Source: a virus | Taxonomy: Duplodnaviria; Caudoviricetes | Direction: 5' to 3' (one strand) | Virus record (IMG/VR): IMGVR_UViG_3300036832_000092 | Coordinates: 1-52,898 of that record | DNA length: 52,898 nt | Part shown: positions 2,819 through 22,200 of the stretch, in pieces | Layout: every line of letters starts with the position of its first letter | How positions within the stretch are numbered: the stretch's first letter is position 1 | The notes under the pieces: generated by a model | Told to the model about the DNA's origin: nothing | Databases searched by the model: none | Seen by the model: the letters and a program-made list of their open reading frames with translations, nothing else | Made by a program: the position numbers and the translations under genes

Positions 2819-3268
2819 ATGGCTTCATTCTCTGGCCGTATCAACAATGGCCCTGGTTACAAGATCATCTTGGATAGCAGGGCAATAGATGAAATGCTGC
2901 GTGGCCCCAATGGCTATGTGATGCGTGATCTGATTCGTCGTGCTGAGATGCTACAGACTTTGGCCAAGGAGCAATGCGGATTCGGCTCTGGTAATGATCC
3001 TCATGGACATTTGCGAGACAGCATCGTCAAGCGCATTGTGTCTGGCGGCTCGGGAACGCCATATGTGATGGTTGGTAGCGCGCACCCAATTGCGTTGATT
3101 CATCATGACGGTACTGCACCCCACGTAATTGTACCAAGGAATGCGACAGTGTTGGCATTCCCTTCCGATCGGTCGCCGAGTGGAATGGCGTTCGCAAAGA
3201 GAGTCAACCATCCAGGCACAAAGCCCAACAGGTATCTGACGGACAACCTGCCACGAGTCGCAAACTGA
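2819..3268 (+). CDS. Putative tail completion / neck protein (HK97 gp10-like)
   Basis: GHLRDSI, HDGTAPHVI, VNHPGTKPNRYL motifs. Confidence 0.7.
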   Translation: MASFSGRINNGPGYKIILDSRAIDEMLRGPNGYVMRDLIRRAEMLQTLAKEQCGFGSGNDPHGHLRDSIVKRIVSGGSGTPYVMVGSAHPIALIHHDGTAPHVIVPRNATVLAFPSDRSPSGMAFAKRVNHPGTKPNRYLTDNLPRVAN

Positions 3269-3957: not shown

Positions 3958-6524
3958 CAGTTATTGGTGAAGCCTACATCATGATCAAGGGTGTGTCTGA
4001 GGGCGATTCCGGTGTAAGCAAAATTGAAGGACAAATTTCTGGCGTTGGTGCATCTGCCGAGAAATCAAGTGGTCGTGCCAGGGCTGCATTCAAGTCAATG
4101 GGCACAGCGCTTGGCTCTGCGTTTGGTCCGGCATTCCAGCCGATTCAAGAAGTCATGGACAAGTTTGATGAGCTTGATATCCATGGAGGAAAGCTCAAGG
4201 ATAATGTCGGCAAATATGCATTAGGCATTGGTGCTGCAATGACTGGCGCCGGTACACTTTTGACGACTGTGTCTGATAAAGACAAAGTATCAATGGGACA
4301 ACTTGAGCAAGCGGTCAAGAATGCCGGTGGCGATTGGGAGAAGTACAAGGACAAGACTGAAGAGGTAGTCAAATCACAAGAGAAATATGGGCATACTGCC
4401 GTTGAGACATCTGGTGCTTTGAACGATCTTGTGACCAAAACGCACAATGTACATGATTCATATGAGAATATGCAGTTGGTTGCTGACGTTGCCGCTCAGA
4501 AGAATACCAGCTTGTCGTCTGCTGCATCTATTGTAGCCAAGGTGATGAATGGTAATACAAAGACGCTCAAGCAGTATGGCATCACGCAAGACGACATCAA
4601 CAAGAAGCTTGATACTGGCGCAATTCATACCAAGAATCTCCAGATGGCCCAGGCATTACAAGGAGTGGAAGCAAACAAGAATGCGTTGGCTGCGCTGAAG
4701 ACTCGTGATGCTCGTCTCAAGGAGATATTGGCAACAACTCAAGACAAAGGCCAGCAAGAATTATTGCGCAAGGAGATAGCCAAGGATTCAGATACACGTT
4801 CAAAGCTAACAGATGCGATGGGCAAGAACAAGGATAGGGCAAGTGCACTAAAGGCAGAACTCAAGCAATTGACTACTGGCCAAAAGGCAGGGGTGGCCGG
4901 TACTGAGTTGCTTGCGGAGAAGATGAAGGGCCAAGCAGCAATCGCTGCTGATACATTCTCTGGTAAGATGAAGGAAGTCAGAGCTAAGATTGAAGATTTT
5001 ATTGGTACCGTTGGGCAAAAGCTTGGACCAGCGCTCCAAATAGCCGGACCTGCCATGATGGGCTTTGGCGCTATTGTTGAATCTGGAATTGTAGGCAAGA
5101 TCGGCAATGGTATTGGCAAGATCAAAGAATTCATGAGCATGGAGAAGCTTGCTGGCGTTGCGACAAAGGTATGGACTGGTATTCAAGCAGCATTCAACAT
5201 AGTCATGGACGCCAACCCAATTGTGCTTGTGGGAGTAGCAATCACTGCCTTGGTTGGCGTTCTTGTTCTGGCATACCTCAAGTTCAAGCCATTCCATGAT
5301 TTGATCAACGCCATTGCTAGTGACATCAAGAAGTTCTTCATTGGCGCATTTGATGTTGTAATCAACGCATTCCATAGTTTCATCAACGCATTTGAAACAG
5401 TTTGGAAGTTTATACTTGACATCGTCAAGAAGTATTGGCCAATCATCCTTGCCGTGATATTGCCATTCGTTGGCATTCCAGTATTGATCATGCAAAACTG
5501 GAACAAGATCGTTAGCTTCTTTGAGAATCTGTGGGGCACGGTATCACAAATCTTCCAGAATGTCGTTGCGTGGTTTGGTCATTTACCATCAAGGATCATA
5601 ACTGCGCTGGGCAATATCGGCACAAAGGTTTGGTCTGCAATTCAAGCAGGCGTACAACACTTTGCTGATAAATTCATTGCGGTTGGCAAATCGCTCATTT
5701 CATACTTTGGCAAATTCGCCAGTCGCGTAATCAGCGGCATCGGCAATCTTGGTGCAAAAATATGGACCAATGTCTCGACAGGCCTGGGGAATTTGACCAA
5801 TGCCTTCACCAACTGGATTGGCAGAGCAGTTGATTGGTTTGGTACATTGCCAAACAAGGTCGTCAATGCAATTGGTAATATTGGCTCTGCTATCTGGAGT
5901 TCGGTTACATCAGGCTTGAATAACTTCATCAGTCACGTCACAAATTGGACTAGCAATATCGCCAACTATTTCGGCAACCTGCCGAGCAAAATCATTTCAG
6001 CTATTGGCAATCTAGGTTCCAAGATTTGGAATGGAGTCAGGGGTGGCCTTAGCACTATCAAGACTAATATTGTCAACGCATTCTCTGGCGCCGGATCATG
6101 GTTGCTTTCAGCTGGTAGTGATGTGGTCAGTGGCTTCATTCATGGCATCGAGAATATGTTTGGTAGCGTTGTGGATACTGCCAAGAGTTTGATCTCGCAC
6201 CTTGGACATTCTGTGCTGCATGCATTGGGTATCGGATCGCCATCAAAGGTGTATCATGAGATCGGCAAGAATGTCGCTGCTGGTCTCATTCAAGGTCTTG
6301 ATCATAGTCATGGCGATGTTGGAAATGCTGGTCGCCGACTGGTCAATGCTGTGATCCACAAGGATGGTGGCACAATTGGTGTGCCTATGCATGCGAATGC
6401 TGCGGGTGCTGGTGGCGGTCGGGTAATCAACTTGTTCCCCAATGCAATCATTGACTTTGGCAAGGAAAGCCCAGCGTCAATTGTCCAGCGCTTGCAGAGC
6501 GCAATTGTGGCGAGTAGGCTGTGA
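3954..6524 (+). CDS. Tape measure protein
   Basis: 856 aa; starts IGEAYI; ANPI hydrophobic segment, W/F periodic repeats, LGIGSPSKV near C-terminus. Confidence 0.93.
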   Translation: MTVIGEAYIMIKGVSEGDSGVSKIEGQISGVGASAEKSSGRARAAFKSMGTALGSAFGPAFQPIQEVMDKFDELDIHGGKLKDNVGKYALGIGAAMTGAGTLLTTVSDKDKVSMGQLEQAVKNAGGDWEKYKDKTEEVVKSQEKYGHTAVETSGALNDLVTKTHNVHDSYENMQLVADVAAQKNTSLSSAASIVAKVMNGNTKTLKQYGITQDDINKKLDTGAIHTKNLQMAQALQGVEANKNALAALKTRDARLKEILATTQDKGQQELLRKEIAKDSDTRSKLTDAMGKNKDRASALKAELKQLTTGQKAGVAGTELLAEKMKGQAAIAADTFSGKMKEVRAKIEDFIGTVGQKLGPALQIAGPAMMGFGAIVESGIVGKIGNGIGKIKEFMSMEKLAGVATKVWTGIQAAFNIVMDANPIVLVGVAITALVGVLVLAYLKFKPFHDLINAIASDIKKFFIGAFDVVINAFHSFINAFETVWKFILDIVKKYWPIILAVILPFVGIPVLIMQNWNKIVSFFENLWGTVSQIFQNVVAWFGHLPSRIITALGNIGTKVWSAIQAGVQHFADKFIAVGKSLISYFGKFASRVISGIGNLGAKIWTNVSTGLGNLTNAFTNWIGRAVDWFGTLPNKVVNAIGNIGSAIWSSVTSGLNNFISHVTNWTSNIANYFGNLPSKIISAIGNLGSKIWNGVRGGLSTIKTNIVNAFSGAGSWLLSAGSDVVSGFIHGIENMFGSVVDTAKSLISHLGHSVLHALGIGSPSKVYHEIGKNVAAGLIQGLDHSHGDVGNAGRRLVNAVIHKDGGTIGVPMHANAAGAGGGRVINLFPNAIIDFGKESPASIVQRLQSAIVASRL

Positions 6525-13733: not shown

Positions 13734-14006
13734 ATGACCTACAACTCAACTGCTGATATGCATGACGACTTTGACTTGCATCGCAGGCTTGTCGCTTGCG
13801 CGAGTGAACAAGGCAAGGGCAATCCGGATGACGGTGCTGCGCAGCCCGACAATTGGGTTGCCTTGCACAAGTGGCCAATTGTGAACAGCCCTGGTTGGTC
13901 TGCCAAATATGACTCTGCTCGCGCGTCTGGCAATACATCGCCTGGTAGGGATGCGGCAGTCATCACTGACGACGACATCTTGGCGACGATTCAGCCGATG
14001 GCATAG
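13734..14006 (+). CDS. Hypothetical protein (end of tail module)
   Basis: AGGGAG RBS; 90 aa; ends VITDDDILA. Confidence 0.7.
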   Translation: MTYNSTADMHDDFDLHRRLVACASEQGKGNPDDGAAQPDNWVALHKWPIVNSPGWSAKYDSARASGNTSPGRDAAVITDDDILATIQPMA

Positions 14007-15111
14007 TCATCATCATGTAGAATTGAAGATCGCAAAACATGCCTGGAGTCCATGGGGATTCCGGGCATTTTTGCTGCGCATTCTCTACCATTTCGGTATG
14101 AATCCGCCATTTACAGTTTCTTGGAGCCCATCCCCATCGTGCCTGGTGGTCAGAGTTCTGCTGCGAGCCTGTACAAGAGCCACTGTCGCGACACCTTTAC
14201 GGCGCATGTTCTCGCTGGCCTTCCGGCGCCTCACCCCGCAGATTCATGGCCCTTCATGTAATTCATGACAGCTTCACCAGCTTGGGCGAGAGGGTCAATC
14301 GACGTCTCCATGTAACTCATGGAACAGCCTTTCTCTACTAAATCGGTATGACATATCTGAATCCGCCAAATCAGTTCTAAGCAGAAGTCGATCTTGCCCA
14401 TGGTATTAGGTCTGATGCCTCACGCTCTGCTGCGAGGCTGACGTTCGCATGCCGTAGCTGCGATTCTCGTCAGCGCCCCACCCGGCTGGCAGGCCTCGAA
14501 AGTAAGCATCACGTAAGCATTAGTTATGAAAGGCATAAGAAAACCAGCTTTCACACCAGGGTTTACAGTAGATTCAGTGTTGCGGACGTAGCGCAACTGA
14601 AGGTTACGGCCCGCTCGATCCCCCAATAATTTCATGCACGCAAGCGCAACGAGCCGTTCGAGCCCCATGAATTTCATGGGGCGCGTTACGGACGGACTGT
14701 TGCGTCGCATACTTTCTCCCGAAACGGGTAAGCGAAGGATGTTCATGCGAAATATGGGACTAGCTAGGCGCTCTGCGAAGAGTAGCTCCGAAATTCCATG
14801 CGGGACATGCGCGCTACGGGTGGGCACAAGTCGATCTTGTGCAGCAGACCGAACCACCTCCTGACGTAAGGATTCATGAGAAATATGCGAGGAACTCAAA
14901 AGGTACCATGCGGGCCATGATCGATCTTTGTCAATAAAATAGTGTGATTCTTCTCATTTCCATGAGGTCGATGAGAGTTGCCTCAGGTTGGGGTGTTGTG
15001 AGTCCGACTAATAGGCGGATACCCCAATCTCTGGTTGCCTTATCGACAAGGCAGAAAATGCGAACTAGTAAATTGCTAGTCGCAAGCAAAATTACCATGG
15101 AGGTAATGAGA
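14007..15111. promoter_or_regulatory. ~1.1 kb non-coding control region between late and early genes
   Basis: No convincing ORF; diverged direct repeats, many hairpins, TAAAAT -10-like box at 14935-14940. Confidence 0.6.
14967..15058 (+). ncRNA. Pseudoknotted intergenic element, copy 0
   Basis: GTCGAT (14967-72) is complementary to loop ATCGAC of hairpin TTGCCTT/AAGGCAG; inserted stem GTTGGGGTGTT/GATACCCCAAT. Confidence 0.5.
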
Positions 15112-15549
15112 ATGTTCGAAATCACTGGCAAGCAGGTCATGGCGTCCGGCGCTGGTCACAACTACCACCTGTTCCGTAGCTGCTACGGTAACAAGTTGGG
15201 GCAGGGTTACCATGTCTCCGTTGGTAATGACATCTACCGTACGCACCGCGTATCGGTCGAAACTGCCATCGAGCAGGGTTACTTCGCATGCCGCGTATGC
15301 TATAAGCGTGCGGGGCTGACGGTCCCGGCTGCGGCCGACCGTGTGAAGGTCCGTGACGCTAAGCGTGCGGAACGTCTTGCGCGTAAGGCTGAGATTGAGG
15401 CTGCCAAGGCTGAGAACGTTGCCGCTCGTGCGGCGACTGACGCTGCGGTCGATGTGATCAAGGCTGCGAACGTTGAGGTTGACGTCAACGCTCTGATTGC
15501 GTCCCTGATCGACATGCTAAAGCTGGAGACTCTGGCCACTACGGTCTGA
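15112..15549 (+). CDS. Early protein with Ada-type Zn-binding-like motif
   Basis: GGAGG RBS at 15099; YHxxxxC...GYFACRVC followed by an Ala-rich helix. Confidence 0.7.
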   Translation: MFEITGKQVMASGAGHNYHLFRSCYGNKLGQGYHVSVGNDIYRTHRVSVETAIEQGYFACRVCYKRAGLTVPAAADRVKVRDAKRAERLARKAEIEAAKAENVAARAATDAAVDVIKAANVEVDVNALIASLIDMLKLETLATTV

Positions 15550-15604
15550 GTGCGTTGCGTTTGGCCATGCTAGTCATGGTCATTCGTTGCCTACTCAGGC
15601 AGAA
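15547..15604 (+). ncRNA. Pseudoknotted intergenic element, copy 1
   Basis: TGAGTG pairs with loop TACTCA of TTGCC/GGCAG; inserted CATG-CTAGT-CATG hairpin. Confidence 0.6.
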
Positions 15605-15630
15605 CTACCCTACTAGGAATGAGGAATCAA

Positions 15631-15840
15631 ATGGCAAACGTGCTCAGAGGTGTCGTAAAGGCATATCAAGACTGGGACTATCTCGACGTTGACGAGGAAG
15701 TCTCAGGTGAGCAAGTTGACGTTTCGATCTTCGCAGTCGTTGGGGAATTTGCGGGCAAGGAATTTGCCCATGATATCCCTGAGGGTTCCAAGATCGAATG
15801 GGACGCCGACTGGGAGCCTACCTACCAACTCAAGCAGTAA
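15631..15840 (+). CDS. Hypothetical early protein
   Basis: GAGGA RBS before ATG 15631; 69 aa acidic. Confidence 0.7.
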   Translation: MANVLRGVVKAYQDWDYLDVDEEVSGEQVDVSIFAVVGEFAGKEFAHDIPEGSKIEWDADWEPTYQLKQ

Positions 15841-15843
15841 ATC

Positions 15844-15903
15844 CGGTTGCGTTGCGTAATCTACATGCCTAGCATGTAGGTTGCGTTGCCCACCCGGGCA
15901 GAA
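15844..15903 (+). ncRNA. Pseudoknotted intergenic element, copy 2
   Basis: CGGTTG pairs 5/6 with loop CACCCG of TTGCC/GGCAG; 14-bp inserted hairpin. Confidence 0.6.
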
Positions 15904-15926
15904 TTACCGACTGAAGGAGAATCAGA

Positions 15927-16154
15927 ATGGCCATGGAGCCCAAGCCCAAGCCTGAGAAGTCGTTCAGCATTGACGGCATTGAAGTCAAGGTTGGCATGAT
16001 GTTCTGGGACTATGACTTGCGCCGTTGCCAGGTGCTAGCGGAGGAGCCATACAACCCATACGATGGTGTTGTTTGGTTCCGTACCACCACTGGTATGTTT
16101 GATGGTCAGCGCCTCTGGCGTCGCCACCCATCTACTGGTAAGCCCTGCTACTGA
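15927..16154 (+). CDS. Hypothetical early protein
   Basis: AAGGAG RBS; 75 aa. Confidence 0.75.
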   Translation: MAMEPKPKPEKSFSIDGIEVKVGMMFWDYDLRRCQVLAEEPYNPYDGVVWFRTTTGMFDGQRLWRRHPSTGKPCY

Positions 16155-16213
16155 ACACTCAACAGAATGTACATGCTAGTCATGTACATTCGATTGTCCG
16201 TTCAGGACAGAAA
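16152..16213 (+). ncRNA. Pseudoknotted intergenic element, copy 3
   Basis: TGAAC pairs with loop GTTCA of TTGTCC/GGACAG; perfect 11-bp hairpin GAATGTACATG-CTAGT-CATGTACATTC. Confidence 0.55.
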
Positions 16214-16328
16214 GGATTCTCAAGCCTGATAGGCCTGAGGATTCGGTCTTGCCCTGCCAGTCCGGCAGGAGTAAGGTCAGCGCTAGCAAGGAGATTCCTT
16301 GCTAGGCATGCGATCCAGGAGGAACGCA

Positions 16329-16910
16329 ATGACTGAAGTGAATGAGGAGATCAAGGCAACCGCAGAGTCGGATGCCCCAGTCCCCGCAACGTCCGACGGT
16401 GCGGAAGGGGCACCTGCCGACAGCACTCCCGTGGTCAAGACGCCCAAGTCTTGGGCCGACCGTATCAAGACGAGTCTTGAGAACGGACGGCAGAACGCGC
16501 GGTACATCAAGTTCAAGGAGTTCATCGCCGATGAATCCAATGGTGAAACGGTCGCTGACCTGGACACCATCGCTCTGGTGATGACCTTGATCAACGGATG
16601 GCGTGCGACTCCTGAGTACAAGGAGTGGGACGCAGAATACCGTGCGACGACTGGTGGAGGCACGACGCCCAAGGACGTCAAGCCCAAGACCAAGGAGGAA
16701 GCGCAGGCACTGGTCAAGAAGGCAGAAGAGAGTGCTGCCCGACAGGCCAAGGCCAAGGCCACTGCTGAGGCTCGCGCAGAGCGTGCGCGGCTGATGCTGG
16801 CTGAGCTGGAGCAGGAGGCTGCTGGCGAGGGTGTCGAGGCTGATGAATCCGATGAGGACATCACCGACGACACTGGCGACGCTGACGATTCCACGGATGA
16901 AGCGTTCTAG
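16329..16910 (+). CDS. Hypothetical acidic/helical early protein
   Basis: AGGAGG RBS before ATG 16329; high-GC3 codon usage. Confidence 0.8.
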   Translation: MTEVNEEIKATAESDAPVPATSDGAEGAPADSTPVVKTPKSWADRIKTSLENGRQNARYIKFKEFIADESNGETVADLDTIALVMTLINGWRATPEYKEWDAEYRATTGGGTTPKDVKPKTKEEAQALVKKAEESAARQAKAKATAEARAERARLMLAELEQEAAGEGVEADESDEDITDDTGDADDSTDEAF

Positions 16911-16931
16911 CAGACGCTAATTCCCATGGTG

Positions 16932-16968
16932 CGGATGGGGCCTGGTCGAACTGACCTGGCCCTATCCG
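16932..16968 (+). terminator. Strong hairpin after gene (terminator or stabiliser)
   Basis: CGGATGGGGCC-TGGTC..GACCT-GGCCCTATCCG; no U-tract. Confidence 0.4.
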
Positions 16969-16990
16969 GGCATGTACCTTGATCTCAACA

Positions 16991-17054
16991 GGTCGAAACT
17001 CCATGCACGGCATGTGTATGGAGTCCGCATGTAAGGCATGCGCTGATGATGACC
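16991..17054 (+). ncRNA. Hammerhead ribozyme, type II; predicted cleavage after C17025 (GUC)
   Basis: GGTC-GAAA-[CTCCATGCAC/GTGTATGGAG]-TC-[CGCATG/CATGCG]-CTGATGA-T-GACC; loop I TAAGG can pair with upstream CCTTG (16977-81). Confidence 0.88.
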
Positions 17055-17094
17055 AAATGTCTCAGTCAGAACATCGAACCAGGGAGAATCCCCA

Positions 17095-17670
17095 ATGGAA
17101 AGTGAGAAACGTCCCATCACGGACAGTCAGATCAAGTATCTGACTGACCTTGCTGGCTCACGGCAGATGGAAGATGCCGACAGGCTATTCCTACTGGAGC
17201 ACATGAAAGACTTCGACACCAAGTTGGCGTCAAAGTGGATTGATGCGCTCAAGATGCTGCCGCCAAGGCCCAAGCAGTTGCCGAAGCCCAAGTGGTCCGT
17301 GCCTGACGTGATCCCAGATGGTCGTTATGCGATCCTGAATCCCAGTAAGGCATGGGTATTCTTTCGCATTCTGACCAAGGAAGATCGTCAGAACGGACTG
17401 GAGTACAGGATTGTCCAAAAGATCCTTGGGGCGCCTGGTGATTTCAGGTACGTCAGAGTCACCGCAGAGGAGTGGAACCTTGCGATCACAAAGATCGCAG
17501 TGGATCCAGGCCTGTTCTCGCAGATGTTCGGCATCCAAGTCGGTGTCTGCGGGGTGTGTGGCAGTCCGCTGACGGACCCCACTTCAATCAAGTTGGGTAT
17601 CGGCCCAATTTGCGCTGCGAAGTATGGGTTATTCGGCGACGATGAGGCTGACGAGGCTGACGATGAGTGA
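17095..17670 (+). CDS. DUF6011-like Zn-ribbon protein
   Basis: CGVCGSPLTDPTSIKLGIGPICA motif. Confidence 0.8.
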   Translation: MESEKRPITDSQIKYLTDLAGSRQMEDADRLFLLEHMKDFDTKLASKWIDALKMLPPRPKQLPKPKWSVPDVIPDGRYAILNPSKAWVFFRILTKEDRQNGLEYRIVQKILGAPGDFRYVRVTAEEWNLAITKIAVDPGLFSQMFGIQVGVCGVCGSPLTDPTSIKLGIGPICAAKYGLFGDDEADEADDE

Positions 17671-17920
17671 GCCGCAGAAGTTCCAGTCAATCGAACTGGA
17701 CTGCCCACCTGGCATGGTGCGCCCAAATGATCTGTTCGACGCTGTCGTCAAGGATCTGGGCATCGAGCCCATATCACGTGATGTCCCATGTATGTTTGGA
17801 CATTCTGAGTGGTTCTTCAGAATCGACAGACCTACATGGGAGGCTAAGTATCAGCCAACAATCAAGGAACGTGTGGAGCGCCTGTACAATTCGGGAGTGA
17901 TCAGATACGGCAGCTGGTAA
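17663..17920 (+). CDS. Hypothetical protein
   Basis: GAGG before ATG 17663; overlaps previous stop. Confidence 0.7.
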   Translation: MSEPQKFQSIELDCPPGMVRPNDLFDAVVKDLGIEPISRDVPCMFGHSEWFFRIDRPTWEAKYQPTIKERVERLYNSGVIRYGSW

Positions 17921-17979
17921 CCATGTTTGGCCGCAGACGATAGTGCTGCGGTCATTCATGGCTATCAAGGTGATAGTCA

Positions 17980-18264
17980 ATGGAAATGAGGAAGGGTCAA
18001 ATGGGACAAGACTCGCTCAGAGTTGAGGGTTTGTCGGTGGGACGACTGTATCGCATTATCTACAGGAATCCTTTGGACAAACTACCACGGCAGATGATTG
18101 CTAAGTACATGGGTCAGGAGGATAGCGCAGACACGCTGTTCTTCAATCTGCGCCCAATTGCCGGCACCCAAGCGATCAAGATCGAATGGATACAACAGCT
18201 ATGGGAGACAGACCAAATCGTCGCTGCACCAACGATCTATCGTGGCGAAACGCGAGTGTTCTGA
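17980..18264 (+). CDS. Hypothetical protein
   Basis: AAGGTG RBS; 94 aa. Confidence 0.65.
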   Translation: MEMRKGQMGQDSLRVEGLSVGRLYRIIYRNPLDKLPRQMIAKYMGQEDSADTLFFNLRPIAGTQAIKIEWIQQLWETDQIVAAPTIYRGETRVF

Positions 18265-18354
18265 GCAAGGATGTTTGGTCATGTTGTGATACATGGCCAT
18301 TCACCCCTGTTCAGGGGAAGTTCCCATCAACCCATGGAGAATTGAGGAGAGTCA

Positions 18355-20295
18355 ATGGAGGAACAGCAGGAACAGAATCACCAGGCTATACCTGGTGGCT
18401 CAATCGCTGCGGCTATAGCGGCCAAGACTGCCGCTGAGAAGCCCATAGATCCCAAGTGTTACTTGGACATCGAGAATGGGTTCATCAGCGTCAAGTCAAG
18501 GTACTCCGCTATGGCCAACGTCGTGTATCGACAGCAAGGTGGTCGTTGGAAGGATGACGACAACGGCAAAAGATGGCTGCTACCTCTGACGATGGAGACA
18601 TGCCAGGCGCTTCGCAAGCATTGGAAGCAAGACTTGGTGATCTCCAAATCCCTCAACCAATGGGCGAGAGGTGAGAAGGTCAGACAAGAGGCTGTTGCAG
18701 CACTTCACAAGGCAGAAAGTGCAACGCTGAATGAAGTCTCGGTCACGCACCCCGCATTAGCGAAAGCCATGGATAGCAGAACTTACCAACAGGTTGGTGC
18801 TGCGTTCATTGCTCATCAAAGGTCTGTGCTCATTGCTGATGAGCCTGGCTTGGGCAAAACGCTTGAAGCTATTGCGGGAATTGTCGAGGCTGGGTGTTGG
18901 CGAGGATTGATCCTTGTCGCTGCGCCGCTCACCAGTCTACGGACTGTGTGGGAACATGAGCTGTCGAAGTGGGCTCCTGAAGCCCATGTAGTGATTGGTG
19001 TTCCCAAGAAGCACGATAATGCTGCTGCGCGCATTGACTTGCAGAACAAGTTCATTGAGCACTACGCAGAGAATCCTCTACAACCGCATATCTTGGTTGT
19101 GAATCCTGAGATGCTTCAGGCTCGCAAGCAAGACAACTTTGTCCTGTTCACAGCAGTTGAGTGGCAGGCAATTGTGGTCGATGAAAGCCATAAATACTTG
19201 GCTGGCATTGAGTCTGCACGCAAGCATACGCAGACTGGTAAAGGATTGCTTGATCTCAAGCTAGCAGAAGATGGGGTCAAGATCGCATTGTCGGGAACAC
19301 CCATGCGCGGCAGGCCGTGGCACTTGTGGGGTACGTTGCACTGGTTGCGTCCCAAGCAGTACACTGCGGCATGGAGATGGTATGAACGATACTTCCTCAT
19401 GACCAAGGGATGGGGCGGCAGTCAAACGATTGGTGCGCTAAACCCATGGCGACAAGAGCAATTCTACAAGTCGCTTGATGACATCATGCTTCGCAGAACA
19501 AAAGCTGAGGTCGTCAAGGAACTACCTGCCAAGCAGCACATCGACATCATGGTCGATATGACCAGTTCCCAAGAGGCCATGTACAAGTCTATGGCAGCCG
19601 ATGCTGCCGCAGAGTTGCTAGGCATGGACTTTGGGGATGATGATGCTGGGAGTATCTCGGCTGTTGGTGTCCTTGCCATCATGACACGCCTCAAGCAGTT
19701 TGCGGACTGCGCATGGAGAGGCGCGAACATTGAGGGCATGGTACCTACAGCAAAGATGCATCCTTTGCATTCTGGCAAGACTGCGGTCATTGAGGATATG
19801 CTCATCGAACGTGGAATTGCTGGACCTATGGATGAGCGGGATGGCAATCACAAGATCGTTATTGCCAGCCAGTTCACCAAGGTCATCGACTCGCTGGAGG
19901 AATACCTTGATGGCATTGGAGTCGATTGCCTCAAGATTACCGGTGGCGTGAATGAGCAACAACGTGTATCGGCTACCCAACGGTTCCAGTCTGAAGGTGG
20001 ACCGCGTGTAATGCTCATGAATACCAAGGCGGGTGGCGTATCGATCACGCTCGATGCGTTCTGCGATGAGCTCATCATTATCGATGAGACATGGACGCCA
20101 GACGATCAGGAGCAGTTGGAAGATCGTATCCACCGGGTGAGTCGTATTCACCAAGTGACGATCTACAGGCTGCTGACCAAGGAGTCCATCGACGAATACA
20201 TTGCGGACATCATTGCTCGCAAGGATTCAATCCAGAAGCAGATTCTGGATGGTCGTCGTGGAGTCGAGAACATAGCTGCTGCGATCGTGCGGTAG
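18355..20295 (+). CDS. SNF2-family (SF2) DNA helicase
   Basis: ADEPGLGKT, VDESH, LSGTP, QLEDRIHR motifs. Confidence 0.93.
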   Translation: MEEQQEQNHQAIPGGSIAAAIAAKTAAEKPIDPKCYLDIENGFISVKSRYSAMANVVYRQQGGRWKDDDNGKRWLLPLTMETCQALRKHWKQDLVISKSLNQWARGEKVRQEAVAALHKAESATLNEVSVTHPALAKAMDSRTYQQVGAAFIAHQRSVLIADEPGLGKTLEAIAGIVEAGCWRGLILVAAPLTSLRTVWEHELSKWAPEAHVVIGVPKKHDNAAARIDLQNKFIEHYAENPLQPHILVVNPEMLQARKQDNFVLFTAVEWQAIVVDESHKYLAGIESARKHTQTGKGLLDLKLAEDGVKIALSGTPMRGRPWHLWGTLHWLRPKQYTAAWRWYERYFLMTKGWGGSQTIGALNPWRQEQFYKSLDDIMLRRTKAEVVKELPAKQHIDIMVDMTSSQEAMYKSMAADAAAELLGMDFGDDDAGSISAVGVLAIMTRLKQFADCAWRGANIEGMVPTAKMHPLHSGKTAVIEDMLIERGIAGPMDERDGNHKIVIASQFTKVIDSLEEYLDGIGVDCLKITGGVNEQQRVSATQRFQSEGGPRVMLMNTKAGGVSITLDAFCDELIIIDETWTPDDQEQLEDRIHRVSRIHQVTIYRLLTKESIDEYIADIIARKDSIQKQILDGRRGVENIAAAIVR

Positions 20296-20434
20296 AGCTC
20301 ACATTGACCTCATGGAAATGGGAAGAATCAAAAAGCCAACAGTTACATGTGTCGGACAGCGTCCGATTCGTCCTGGAAAGTCGATCTTGTCTTGGAAGTA
20401 AAATCAGAGTAAGATCGACTCATGGAAATTCCAC

Positions 20435-21214
20435 ATGAAAGGAATGATGATGGACGAACGAACATGGGAGCAAAACGCTCTTGAATTCGCTGAACTGGAC
20501 AAGGGTGAGGGCTGGCCATTTGCCATCCTTGTCGCTTGCTCAGTTCAACCAGGCAAAGTTGGTGGTCGTCGTTCAAATCTCGATCGAGATTTGAAGGTTG
20601 ACGCAACAACATTTGCAGCTAGGGCAGAAACCAGCAATGATCGCATCCTCAGGTATTACAGGGCATGGCAGAAAGCTGCATTGAATGGCTATGTACCCAA
20701 TGCTGATACGCTGAAGCCAAGTGATGTCGATAACGTCAAGTTGCCGACACTTGCTTGGTCAAAGAGTGATGCTGCGCCTGGTGAGCCTTTTGCCTACTCA
20801 GCATCCGCAGAAGCAGCGGCCACAAAGCCAACTACTGCCAAGCAGGTGCAGAAGGCACTTGATTCATTACCACCTGTTCAACGTGATCAGGTTGTGAATC
20901 ATGCGCTTGGGCAAAGGGCTGCTGAAAGTCGCAAGGCCAATGCAATTATTGCTGAAGAGCAAGAATTGCGGATGATGGCTGAAGATCGCAAGATTCTTAC
21001 CAATGAGGATCTTGGTATCACAGGCAGTAGTTTCCCAGAGTTCGAGGCCATGGCTGTTTACAGTCATAACATGCTGTTGATCAGGAAGCGTTCCAAGGAA
21101 CTGATCAAGATCCTTAGCAACATTGCCGTTGTGAAGGATGAGAAAGCAGTTGCGTTACTTGGTGATCTTGTTGATGCGATTGCGCCTCATTTGGCGGTGA
21201 AGGACGATGCGTGA
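20435..21214 (+). CDS. Hypothetical protein, putative HTH DNA-binding
   Basis: KVDATTFAARAETSNDRILRYYRAW resembles an HTH segment seen in actinobacterial/phage proteins; true start may be 20444-20450. Confidence 0.55.
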   Translation: MKGMMMDERTWEQNALEFAELDKGEGWPFAILVACSVQPGKVGGRRSNLDRDLKVDATTFAARAETSNDRILRYYRAWQKAALNGYVPNADTLKPSDVDNVKLPTLAWSKSDAAPGEPFAYSASAEAAATKPTTAKQVQKALDSLPPVQRDQVVNHALGQRAAESRKANAIIAEEQELRMMAEDRKILTNEDLGITGSSFPEFEAMAVYSHNMLLIRKRSKELIKILSNIAVVKDEKAVALLGDLVDAIAPHLAVKDDA

Positions 21215-21668
21215 GACAATTCAGCGGCAATGGACTAGACTGGAGTATAAGCTAGCTCATAACATTGTCGACATGGTCAAAGATGCTGGTGTTGCTGGGG
21301 TGATATTCAAGCCAACGCTTGTGTTGCATGATATCATGCCCCTTGCTGTGATGATTGCAAGCAAGGAAAAGCCAGGCTATACATTGATCAATGATGATGG
21401 ATGGTACGTCATCACGAATGATAAGCATCAGATATTCAAGGTGCTGTTCAATCGTCTCAAAAAGGTAGATACCGCAATCAGAAGGATTCAAGCTGAAATG
21501 CAGCCACTGGGCTACAGCATGGAGACTATGGAGGTGATGACTTCAATCAACTCTATGATCCATGCAATCTCATCATCTGAATTGGCGGAATGTATTGCGA
21601 ATCTACTAGATGAATACAAAGCAATAGAAACAGTTTGGGAAACAACCAAGCGCGAAGTGAGTAACTAA
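21207..21668 (+). CDS. Hypothetical protein
   Basis: Overlaps the upstream gene end; 153 aa. Confidence 0.7.
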   Translation: MRETIQRQWTRLEYKLAHNIVDMVKDAGVAGVIFKPTLVLHDIMPLAVMIASKEKPGYTLINDDGWYVITNDKHQIFKVLFNRLKKVDTAIRRIQAEMQPLGYSMETMEVMTSINSMIHAISSSELAECIANLLDEYKAIETVWETTKREVSN

Positions 21669-21885
21669 CCTAATCGACATTGGACAAATCGGACGCTGTC
21701 CTGCACGTGTAAACGAATAAGCATGGGGTGTATGGGGATGCCAAATCCTCATGCGCTCCATGTTGTTTTGCCCAATTGTCTACTTTGCCTATAGGCAAAT
21801 AGAGCAAGCGCAGAATGTCCATGCCTACCATGGGTCCACGTCCGATTCACCCTGAATTTAGTCCGATTTCGCCCGATTTCTCCCC

Positions 21886-21914
21886 TTTACTAAACGCGAT
21901 TGGTACGGTAGAAT
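21886..21914 (+). promoter_or_regulatory. Sigma70/SigA-type promoter
   Basis: TTTACT-17 bp-TAGAAT in an intergenic region. Confidence 0.6.
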
Positions 21915-21959
21915 CAGTCTGGAAAGCATGGGAAAATCGAGGCGATTGGATAGAGACAC

Positions 21960-22196
21960 TTGACGTACAGAATTGCTATCAACCATGGCTCGCTTGAGAA
22001 TCCTTTGGATAGGGTAGCAATGCGAGCGGTGCGGAATGCAACTGACCCCTTCTGTACTGCTATGTATGGGATCAATGAAGTGACGACATACTGTATTGCG
22101 GACGGTGGACTGGAGCCTGTGCTCACGGCCATCGCCCGCAATCGTCGCATTTCATGGCTGGTCCAAGTCAACTATCACACCGATGTGGAGGAGTGA
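21960..22196 (+). CDS. Hypothetical protein
   Basis: 78 aa ORF downstream of the promoter. Confidence 0.5.
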   Translation: MTYRIAINHGSLENPLDRVAMRAVRNATDPFCTAMYGINEVTTYCIADGGLEPVLTAIARNRRISWLVQVNYHTDVEE

Positions 22197-22200
22197 GCAC

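What the first reader, a model, noticed from the sequence alone, without database searches (positions are those of the whole stretch)
14967..16213. Four covarying copies of an unrecognised pseudoknotted RNA motif (possible new ribozyme or nuclease-blocking element)
Seen: shared layout [pk strand]-linker (GTTG in 3 of 4)-[hairpin, CTAG-containing apex in 3 of 4]-TTGYC-[loop]-G(G/A)CAG-AA at 14967, 15547, 15844 and 16152. The loop differs in each copy yet stays complementary to its own 5' strand: GTCGAT/ATCGAC, TGAGTG/TACTCA, CGGTTG/CACCCG (5/6) and TGAAC/GTTCA. The closing stem also covaries (TGCC/GGCA versus TGTCC/GGACA). Each copy sits upstream of an early gene, and the next spacer holds a hammerhead. 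By eye it does not fit twister, pistol, HDV, hatchet or hairpin consensus. Inference: self-cleavage, a block to RNase J, or put-like antitermination.
Basis: partly seen in the sequence, partly recalled or inferred. Interest (0 to 1): 0.85.

Follow-up and report, generated by a model that had tools for sequence, protein, structure and literature searches.

The report
Measured hairpin cassettes between phage early genes
The repeated RNA motif is real, but it is best read as a stop-codon-anchored long hairpin of about 21 base pairs that sits between the early genes of a soil phage where related phages carry self-cutting hammerhead RNAs, so it probably marks where the long early message is cut or protected rather than being a new ribozyme.

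Summary
The four copies exist as described, and there are two more (17915-17967, 18261-18314). The TTGYC/GRCAG helix is real but competes with a covarying middle stem, so it is an alternative fold.

No Rfam family matches. Only paired positions are invariant across nine copies.

Related copies occur in three other viral contigs and one MAG. All share one geometry: the stop codon lies in the helix base, and a mismatch (U.U in 7 of 9) lies 10 nt above the base and 13-15 nt below the loop.

Relatives hold 6-11 type II hammerheads in the same spacers. In one sibling strain the copy-4 spacer starts like a hammerhead.

Best reading: an intercistronic processing/stability hairpin, probably cut by an RNase III-type enzyme. 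A new ribozyme is unlikely (about 7%).

Earlier notes of this scan describe hairpin or pseudoknot cassettes beside or in place of hammerheads in other phages (e1-5911700, e1-6089047, e1-6073490).

The parts
14967..15047 (+). copy 1: nested hairpin in the leader of the early operon (31 bp, enlarged apical part)
   Evidence: RNAfold -44.2 kcal/mol on 14960-15062, z -4.77; 31 bp with 6 G.U
15035..15056 (+). copy 1: alternative small hairpin H2 (TTGCC..GGCAG) plus AA
   Evidence: pattern match; isolated 3' segment folds to it, 104 of 2000 shuffles as good
15544..15600 (+). copy 2: nested hairpin of 22 bp; stop codon TGA 15547-15549 lies in the basal stem
   Evidence: CM R1/R2 hits
15587..15604 (+). 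copy 2: alternative hairpin H2
15842..15898 (+). copy 3: nested hairpin of 23-24 bp, starting 2 nt after stop TAA 15838-15840
15886..15903 (+). copy 3: alternative hairpin H2
16151..16205 (+). copy 4: nested hairpin of 20 bp; stop TGA 16152-16154 in the basal stem
   Evidence: R1 26.9 bits
16194..16210 (+). copy 4: alternative hairpin H2 (TTGTCC GTTCA GGACAG)
16991..17054 (+). type II hammerhead-like unit in the one early spacer without a hairpin cassette (extra U after CUGAUGA)
   Evidence: regex with stem II check; not scored by Rfam RF02276
17915..17967 (+). copy 6 (new, divergent): nested hairpin of 21 bp around stop TAA 17918-17920
   Evidence: not found by R1 or R2
17962..17976 (+). copy 6: alternative hairpin (CTATCA AGG TGATAG) holding the next gene's ribosome-binding site; its 5' arm is the 3' strand of the basal stem
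   Evidence: a similar sequence lies in L005 in the spacer after stop 5754
18261..18314 (+). copy 5 (new): nested hairpin of 20-22 bp; stop TGA 18262-18264 in the basal stem
   Evidence: R1 22.5 bits, E 4.7e-4
18304..18317 (+). copy 5: alternative hairpin H2 (CCCC TGTTCA GGGG)

Best explanation
Each spacer of the early operon is transcribed into one imperfect stem-loop of about 21 bp. Its 5' strand begins at the stop codon of the upstream gene, and it carries a fixed central mismatch. It is an intercistronic 'punctuation' cassette, interchangeable with the type II hammerhead cassettes that fill the same spacers in related phages. Shown here: the nested fold, its covariation, its fixed geometry, its position, and the hammerhead at the same positions in relatives. 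Inferred: the hairpin is recognised as about two turns of double-stranded RNA by a host RNase III-type endonuclease. That enzyme would cut near the central mismatch and turn the polycistronic early RNA into single-gene messages. Also inferred: once the 5' strand is removed, or covered by a terminating ribosome, the 3' strand refolds into the small hairpin H2 (TTGYC/GRCAG). H2 would then cap the 5' end of the downstream message. This would explain why two mutually exclusive helices are both conserved.
For: Nested fold: six of six copies fold as a single hairpin, z -4.09 to -4.86, with 0 of 200 shuffles as good. They have 20-23 bp (c1: 31) and 19 G.U pairs in all. Covariation on 5 sequences: 89.3% of cells paired, 13 pairs changed on both sides, 0 of 500 shuffles as high; slid controls give 30-39% paired. 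On 9 copies the middle stem is kept: pair 14-47 is 9 of 9 paired with five pair types, and pair 12-49 is U-G in 7 of 9. Geometry: in 9 of 9 copies the central position is 10 nt from the C of CUGA and 13-15 nt below the loop on both arms. It is U.U in 7, A.C in 1 and paired in 1. Totals are 19-24 bp. Position: 5 of the 6 intercistronic spacers between 15549 and 18355, plus the leader, hold a cassette; the sixth holds a hammerhead. Interchange with hammerheads: L004, L005 and L006 (helicase 55-58% identical) hold 11, 6 and 6 type II hammerhead units upstream of the helicase. The Rfam model scores one at 30.4 bits. A sibling-strain contig that is about 90% identical over 15942-16154 continues after 16154 with letters that begin like those hammerheads (tables 7 and 8). 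Refolding: with the 5' arm masked, H2 is the minimum-energy fold in 4 of 5 copies. Hammerheads flanking prophage genes cut polycistronic RNA in vitro (PMC3088659, passages read). Two long-range inverted repeats of 33 and 31 nt bracket the transcription units; such stems are classic RNase III substrates in rRNA operons (own knowledge).
Against: No cleavage or RNA-end data exist. No RNase III domain is encoded in the window, and the host is unknown. A generic test for a hairpin of 18 bp or more starting at a stop codon is not enriched in spacers of hammerhead-bearing phages: 116 of 574 spacers against 169 of 688 positions inside ORFs. The case therefore rests on this family's covariation and geometry, not on hairpins as such. 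Raw stability is not unique: 151 windows of 64 nt on the + strand reach -24 kcal/mol. H2 is absent or weak in 3 of 6 copies from other contigs, so the capping step cannot be general. G001 has three copies but no hammerhead at E <= 0.01. A cut on both strands low in the stem would remove the stop codon.
Confidence: 0.45

Rival explanations
1. Passive structural insulator. The hairpin is not cut. It keeps the spacer folded, which blocks 3' exonucleases and Rho loading after ribosome release and separates translation of neighbouring cistrons. H2 forms transiently while a ribosome sits on the stop codon.
For: The stop codon lies in the helix base in most copies. The fold is stable. H2 appears when the 5' arm is masked. 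No nuclease is needed.
Against: It does not explain the fixed 10 / mismatch / 13-15 geometry or the conserved U.U next to U-G. It also does not explain why the element swaps with an RNA-cutting hammerhead.
Confidence: 0.25
2. Binding site for a specific phage or host protein other than RNase III (translational regulator, dedicated endoribonuclease, chaperone), comparable to the unexplained ESAS inverted repeats of Cluster K mycobacteriophages.
For: A conserved non-canonical U-G/U.U step at a fixed place in the helix. ESAS are imperfect 17-bp inverted repeats before about half of the early genes that carry an SAS, function unknown (PMC3203893, passages read). Nine of 10 early proteins tested have no Pfam family.
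Against: The cassette occurs in contigs with no detectable protein similarity to the window (tblastx), so a phage-specific partner would have to travel with it. No SAS motif is present: 5 matches against 9.06 expected. R2 finds nothing in TM4.
Confidence: 0.12
3. One reading: a pseudoknotted RNA (5' strand paired to the loop of the closed TTGYC/GRCAG hairpin) that cleaves itself or blocks a 5' exonuclease. This would be a new ribozyme or nuclease-resistant class.
For: S1, H1 and H2 are all well paired on 5 sequences (95.7% of cells; H2 has 2 pairs changed on both sides). H2 is better than shuffles in each copy (32 to 185 of 2000 as good). The optimistic knot energy is within 0.3 kcal/mol of the nested fold in copy 4. 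The element occupies hammerhead positions, which is how pistol and other classes were found (PMC4604425, passages read).
Against: The only invariant columns in 9 copies are paired ones. No ribozyme model matches, even at E <= 10 in 1.3 kb. The nested fold is more stable in 5 of 5 copies. The middle stem covaries. H2 is missing or weak in 3 of 6 copies elsewhere. In copy 6 the 5' strand pairs with the H2 arm, not with its loop.
Confidence: 0.07
4. Mainly a DNA-level feature: conserved spacer cassettes that serve as recombination joints for swapping early genes between phages (like the promoter/stem-loop cassettes of T4-type phages, recalled), with no RNA function of their own.
For: Contigs of co-occurring strains match only 15848-15902, or end at 15605, or start at 16167, and then diverge (table 7). 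The cassette is shared by contigs without protein similarity.
Against: G.U pairs favour the sense RNA strand in 5 of 6 copies. Compensatory changes keep the helix. Recombination at cassettes is as well explained as a by-product.
Confidence: 0.06
5. Intrinsic terminators or attenuators that grade transcription along the operon.
For: Stable hairpins directly after stop codons.
Against: None of the six is followed by a T run. The terminator scan lists none of them, but it does list a canonical one at 14039-14068.
Confidence: 0.04

Closest known systems
Intercistronic RNase III processing signals of phage T7/T3 early mRNA (own knowledge, not checked in a paper here)
   Same: An irregular stem-loop of about two helical turns in each spacer of a polycistronic early transcript. 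An internal mismatch or loop lies in mid-helix. The products would end and begin with hairpins.
   Different: There is no sequence relation. Here the helix base contains the upstream stop codon, the 3' strand can refold into a second hairpin, and cleavage is not shown.
Clustered type II hammerhead ribozymes flanking genes in phages and prophages (Perreault et al. 2011, PMC3088659, passages read)
   Same: Same spacers, same start at the stop codon, same operon type. They are directly interchanged in relatives and in a sibling strain.
   Different: The hairpin cassettes have no CUGAUGA/GAAA core and no three-way junction, so they cannot work as hammerheads.
ESAS inverted repeats with SAS of Cluster K mycobacteriophages (Pope et al. 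2011, PMC3203893, passages read)
   Same: Imperfect inverted repeats with a variable spacer, repeated before a subset of non-structural genes, in one orientation, function unknown.
   Different: No SAS motif in the window. R2 scores at most 10.1 bits in TM4. The arms here are anchored on the upstream stop codon rather than on the downstream start.
Pistol ribozyme (Harris et al. 2015, PMC4604425, passages read)
   Same: A small phage-associated RNA with a hairpin and a proposed pseudoknot, found near ribozyme-associated genes.
   Different: In pistol the loop of the first hairpin pairs with the P2/P3 junction, and there are 10 highly conserved nucleotides. Here the 5' single strand would pair with the loop of the second hairpin, and no unpaired position is invariant. 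There is no Rfam match.

Membership tests
Any Rfam family (including hammerhead I/II/III, twister, twister-sister, pistol, hatchet, HDV-like, hairpin) | score against the family covariance model | tested here: not met
   0 matches at gathering score in the window. At E <= 10 only miRNA/snoRNA/lncRNA noise appears in 14000-22200 and 14950-16230. The same library scores a relative's hammerhead at 30.4 bits.
Self-cleaving ribozyme (any class) | a set of invariant, mostly unpaired core nucleotides | tested here: not met
   In 9 aligned copies the invariant columns are C3, G5, C48, C53 and G55 of copy 2. I read all five as lying in helices.
Self-cleaving ribozyme (any class) | site-specific cleavage without protein | not testable with these tools
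   No RNA run holds the stretch.
Type II hammerhead | CUGAUGA and GAAA cores, a cleavage triplet and three stems | tested here: not met
   On the + strand the regex with stem II check finds only 16991-17054 in the window (plus one doubtful - strand match at 5921), against 11, 6 and 6 in L004-L006.
Pistol ribozyme | [quoted passage not shown] | tested here: not met
   The topology differs, there are no invariant unpaired positions and there is no Rfam match.
H-type pseudoknot as the conserved fold | both stems formed together and kept in all members | tested here: inconclusive
   S1 and H2 are paired in the window copies and L204_1. However, S1 runs into the H2 arm, the competing middle stem covaries, H2 is absent or weak in L204_2, G001_2 and L298, and the nested fold is more stable by 0.3-7.4 kcal/mol.
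RNase III processing signal of the T7 type | about two turns (20 bp or more) of mostly double-stranded RNA | tested here: met
   19-24 bp in 9 of 9 copies; 20-23 bp in five window copies and 31 in c1.
RNase III processing signal of the T7 type | placed between cistrons of a polycistronic phage transcript | tested here: met
   5 of 6 intercistronic spacers plus the leader. That it is one transcript is inferred from strand, spacing and the lack of terminators.
RNase III processing signal of the T7 type | cleavage by RNase III at a defined site | not testable with these tools
   No RNA reads; host unknown.
ESAS/SAS of Cluster K mycobacteriophages | 13-bp SAS motif at start codons, with 17-bp inverted repeats just upstream | tested here: not met
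   SAS motif: 5 matches with up to 3 mismatches against 9.06 expected. R2 on the TM4 right half: best 10.1 bits, E 1.3.
Intrinsic terminator | G+C-rich hairpin followed by a U run | tested here: not met
   None of the six is listed by the scan.

The most novel reading that the evidence does not exclude
The cassette is an autonomous two-state RNA that took over the job of the hammerheads. Either it is a protein-independent cleaving or ligating element of a new class whose active form is the H1+H2+loop pairing, or it is a ribosome-actuated switch: arrival of the terminating ribosome at the stop codon in the helix base flips the RNA into the H2 form and thereby times processing of the downstream message.
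Probability: 0.08. Interest if true: 0.85.

Novelty: new variant of a known kind. Interest (0 to 1): 0.5.

Why it matters
What phage hammerheads are for has been open since they were found flanking prophage genes (PMC3088659). Here nature has done the swap experiment. The same spacers, even the same spacer in sibling strains, hold either a hammerhead or a measured hairpin of about 21 bp. This argues that both do one job: gene-by-gene punctuation of the early message. It makes that job testable with a simple pair of constructs. The hairpin family is not in Rfam. It has an unusually strict geometry and carries a built-in alternative fold. That makes it a compact candidate tool for insulating genes in synthetic operons if the processing is confirmed.

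Tried and rejected
Close DNA relatives in the phage collection: none.

Relatives through the helicase: 11 loci. R1 found no copy in the 7 of them searched (best E 0.46). L010 and L011 gave only 12.2 bits. L012 and L013 were not searched with a model.

Protein 16329-16910 has no relative in viral contigs.

Pattern from copies 2/3 in viral contigs: 3 stretches, at chance level by my estimate, none convincing with R1.

By eye all lie in unrelated sequence, many from one conserved 61-nt coding stretch. One equals L015. This spent the only scan of that collection for nothing.

Pattern from the L204 copies in genome contigs: 80 stretches. Only L298/L315 (23.2 bits) hold the hairpin. L308, and L270-L272 from viral contigs, do not fold as one. 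So no host could be named.

R2 over the hammerhead-bearing viral loci: hits only in L204. The searches covered 80 loci (697,358 bases) and then the other 40 (356,017 bases).

A generic 'hairpin at the stop codon' survey gave no enrichment: 116 of 574 against 169 of 688.

A sliding-window MFE scan showed that raw stability is not distinctive.

No RNA holder was listed for the stretch, so transcript ends could not be read.

No RNase III domain in the window.

Readings considered and dropped:
- sigma-70 promoter inside the motif: no usable -10 by eye, and none listed.
- Stop-codon read-through or ribosome hopping: by eye, frames close at once and take-off and landing codons do not match.
- N4-type hairpin promoter: loops of 3 to 8 nt, and no virion RNA polymerase was seen among the ORFs annotated.

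A third model was not built, because alignment A8 mixes in reverse-strand hits. Supplementary files of the papers were not opened; the ESAS consensus sequences are in figures that I could not see.
Full report
WHAT THE WINDOW IS. The window is a 52,898-base viral contig, 76% complete by the record's estimate. It has a tape-measure gene, tail genes, portal, terminase and major head genes, a DnaE-type polymerase, a primase and a helicase. G+C is 51%. A canonical terminator at 14039-14068 follows the tail genes. A non-coding stretch comes next. From about 14945, small genes of unknown function run on the + strand up to the helicase at 18355; 9 of 10 tested have no Pfam family. The finding lies in the spacers of this early operon. 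The stretch is held by DNA runs of soil metagenomes only.

THE OBSERVATION. TTGCC-N4-12-GGCAGAA occurs three times against 0.09 expected. Reading every spacer gave two more copies. Copy 5 is at 18261-18314 (CTGAGCA ... CCCC TGTTCA GGGG). The divergent copy 6 is at 17915-17967. So 5 of the 6 intercistronic spacers between 15549 and 18355, plus the leader, hold the element. The sixth spacer holds a type II hammerhead-like unit at 16991-17054.

WHICH FOLD. RNAfold gives one nested, imperfect hairpin for all six copies. z is -4.09 to -4.86, and 0 of 200 shuffles fold as well for each. It extends 1-3 nt into the GRCAG arm in copies 2-5. The 'GTTG linker' pairs with TTGYC as a middle stem. The CTAG hairpin is the apical stem.

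The hairpins have 22, 23, 20, 21 and 20 bp (c1: 31) and 19 G.U pairs in all. The + strand RNA is more stable than its reverse complement in 5 of 6 copies, so this is a sense-strand RNA feature.

The TTGYC/GRCAG helix (H2) is also real:
- It takes four forms in the window: TGCC/GGCA, TGTCC/GGACA, CCCC/GGGG and CTATCA/TGATAG.
- Each isolated 3' segment folds to it better than most shuffles (32 to 185 of 2000 as good).
- It is 95.8% paired on five sequences.

H2 uses the same nucleotides as the middle stem, so the two cannot coexist. With no penalty charged for the knot, H1+H2+loop pairing is still 0.3 to 7.4 kcal/mol less stable than the nested fold in 5 of 5 copies. With the 5' arm masked, as under a ribosome at the stop codon, H2 becomes the best fold in 4 of 5 copies. 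I therefore read the element as a nested hairpin with a built-in alternative fold, not as a constitutive pseudoknot.

RELATIVES OF THE ELEMENT. A model from copies 2 and 3 (R1) finds copies 4 and 5 in the window (26.9 and 22.5 bits). It finds nothing in 7 helicase relatives. Among 80 viral loci fetched with a hammerhead pattern it finds L204:2873-2936 at 25.6 bits, E 8e-4.

A five-sequence model (R2) adds:
- L204:1054-1116
- three copies in an 84-kb contig, at L266:1780-1842, L273:736-799 and L273:1540-1602
- one copy in two MAG contigs, L298/L315

L265 repeats L204. RNAfold and the eye add L005 at about 2993-3046. L204 shares no detectable protein similarity with the window.

On nine aligned copies the flanking helices are kept by compensatory change. 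Pair 14-47 is 9 of 9 paired with five pair types. The covariation score is 0.399 against 0.180 in shuffles, with 0 of 500 shuffles as high.

The geometry is strict. The central mismatch is U.U in 7 copies, A.C in 1, and paired in 1. It is always 10 nt from the C of CUGA and 13-15 nt below the loop on both arms. Totals are 19-24 bp. By my reading, L005's copy has the same 10/U.U/13 layout with TAA in place of TGA. The stop codon of a long upstream frame lies in the helix base in most copies.

H2 is present in L204_1 and in two G001 copies. It is weak in L204_2 and absent in G001_2 and L298. The only invariant columns are paired ones.

WHAT STANDS IN THE SAME PLACE ELSEWHERE. The closest helicase relatives carry type II hammerhead units in the spacers between their small early genes: 11 in L004, 6 in L005 and 6 in L006. 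One scores 30.4 bits against Rfam RF02276, whose gathering score is 37. Two to six per record are found at E <= 0.01. These units also begin at or right after the stop codon. L005 and L204 hold both kinds of cassette. G001 holds only hairpins.

Contigs of a co-occurring strain match 15942-16154 with 21 differences. They then continue with 30 visible letters that begin like the L004/L005 hammerheads, in place of copy 4. Only the first 30 letters are shown, so the rest of that ribozyme is unseen. Other contigs share only 15848-15902, or stop matching at 15605, or start matching at 16167. The cassette edges are therefore recombination joints between strains.

KNOWN FAMILIES.
- No Rfam family matches at gathering score or at E <= 10.
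- Pistol's topology and its conserved core (PMC4604425) are not met.
- The hairpins lack a hammerhead core.
- They lack U runs.
- They are not the ESAS/SAS repeats of Cluster K mycobacteriophages.

The nearest functional model is the set of RNase III signals between T7 early genes (own knowledge). The nearest neighbours in the genome are the clustered phage hammerheads, which cut polycistronic RNA in vitro (PMC3088659).

MECHANISM AND WEIGHTS.
Shown: fold, covariation, geometry, position, and exchange with hammerheads.
Inferred: an RNase III-type enzyme measures the two-turn helix and cuts near the central mismatch. H2 then caps the downstream message.

Two long-range inverted repeats bracket the units: 14945-14977 with 20298-20330, and 20343-20373 with 21682-21712. 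They fit a phage that uses double-stranded RNA processing.

Against this reading:
- There are no RNA ends to look at.
- No nuclease gene is in the window.
- A generic hairpin-at-stop survey shows no enrichment.
- H2 is optional outside the window.

My weights: processing hairpin 0.45; uncut insulator 0.25; other protein site 0.12; knot or ribozyme 0.07; DNA-only joint 0.06; terminator 0.04.

EARLIER NOTES OF THIS SCAN. Notes on this genome already listed the hammerhead (e1-6343874), both long-range repeats (e1-6343876, e1-6343877) and a hairpin with U.U (e1-6343878). I re-checked the first three. Notes on other genomes describe hairpin cassettes replacing hammerheads, a hairpin-punctuated soil-phage operon with an odd hammerhead, and knots with hammerheads (e1-5911700, e1-6089047, e1-6073490). 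They agree with my reading, but they are unchecked AI notes and were not tested here. A look-up by sequence found no stored look-alike.

Noticed in passing
window 14945-14977 with 20298-20330; 20343-20373 with 21682-21712: Two long-range inverted repeats (33 nt at 91% and 31 nt at 87% complementary) bracket the early operon up to the helicase stop and the next two-gene unit. The first overlaps the 5' arm of copy 1.
   Followed up: partly
window, whole length (e.g. 705, 14385, 14828, 20378, 31535): AAGTCGATCTTG and near copies occur 29 times with up to 2 mismatches, against 4.07 expected (0 of 100 shuffles reach 29). They lie on both strands, inside and outside genes. L004 spacers hold similar CAAGATCGA-containing words. 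Function unknown.
   Followed up: partly
window 14000-14950: About 900 bases without a convincing gene lie between the late terminator and the early operon. By eye the stretch is rich in (T)TCATG/CCATG words and in paired repeats such as TTCATGCGAAATATGGGA / TTCATGAGAAATATGCGAGG. It is probably the early control region.
   Followed up: no
window 16214-16310: The spacer after copy 4 holds two further strong hairpins (64-nt window 16245-16308, -37.6 kcal/mol, the most stable on the + strand) before the gene at 16329.
   Followed up: no
window 16930-16970 and 16991-17054: A hairpin of about 15 bp directly precedes the hammerhead-like unit, as in several L004/L005 spacers (hairpin, then hammerhead). 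The unit has an extra U after CUGAUGA and is not scored by Rfam RF02276.
   Followed up: partly
L004 1143-5960, L005 1692-4984, L006 2709-5935: Dense arrays of type II hammerhead units (11, 6 and 6) lie in about 4-5 kb of small early genes. All score below Rfam's gathering score (best 30.4 bits).
   Followed up: partly
Several have 3-8 copies per locus (L154, L192, L206, L210, L217).
   Followed up: no
window 17095-17670: The 191-aa early protein carries a DUF6011 domain at residues 145-178 (E 8.8e-14). It is the only Pfam match among 10 early proteins.
   Followed up: no
L269 (G001) spacers after stops 394 and 1505 (reverse-complement coordinates): Both cassettes are followed by the same CCCACTCACCGGAGGT word just before the next start codon. 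This is a conserved ribosome-site module travelling with the hairpin.
   Followed up: no
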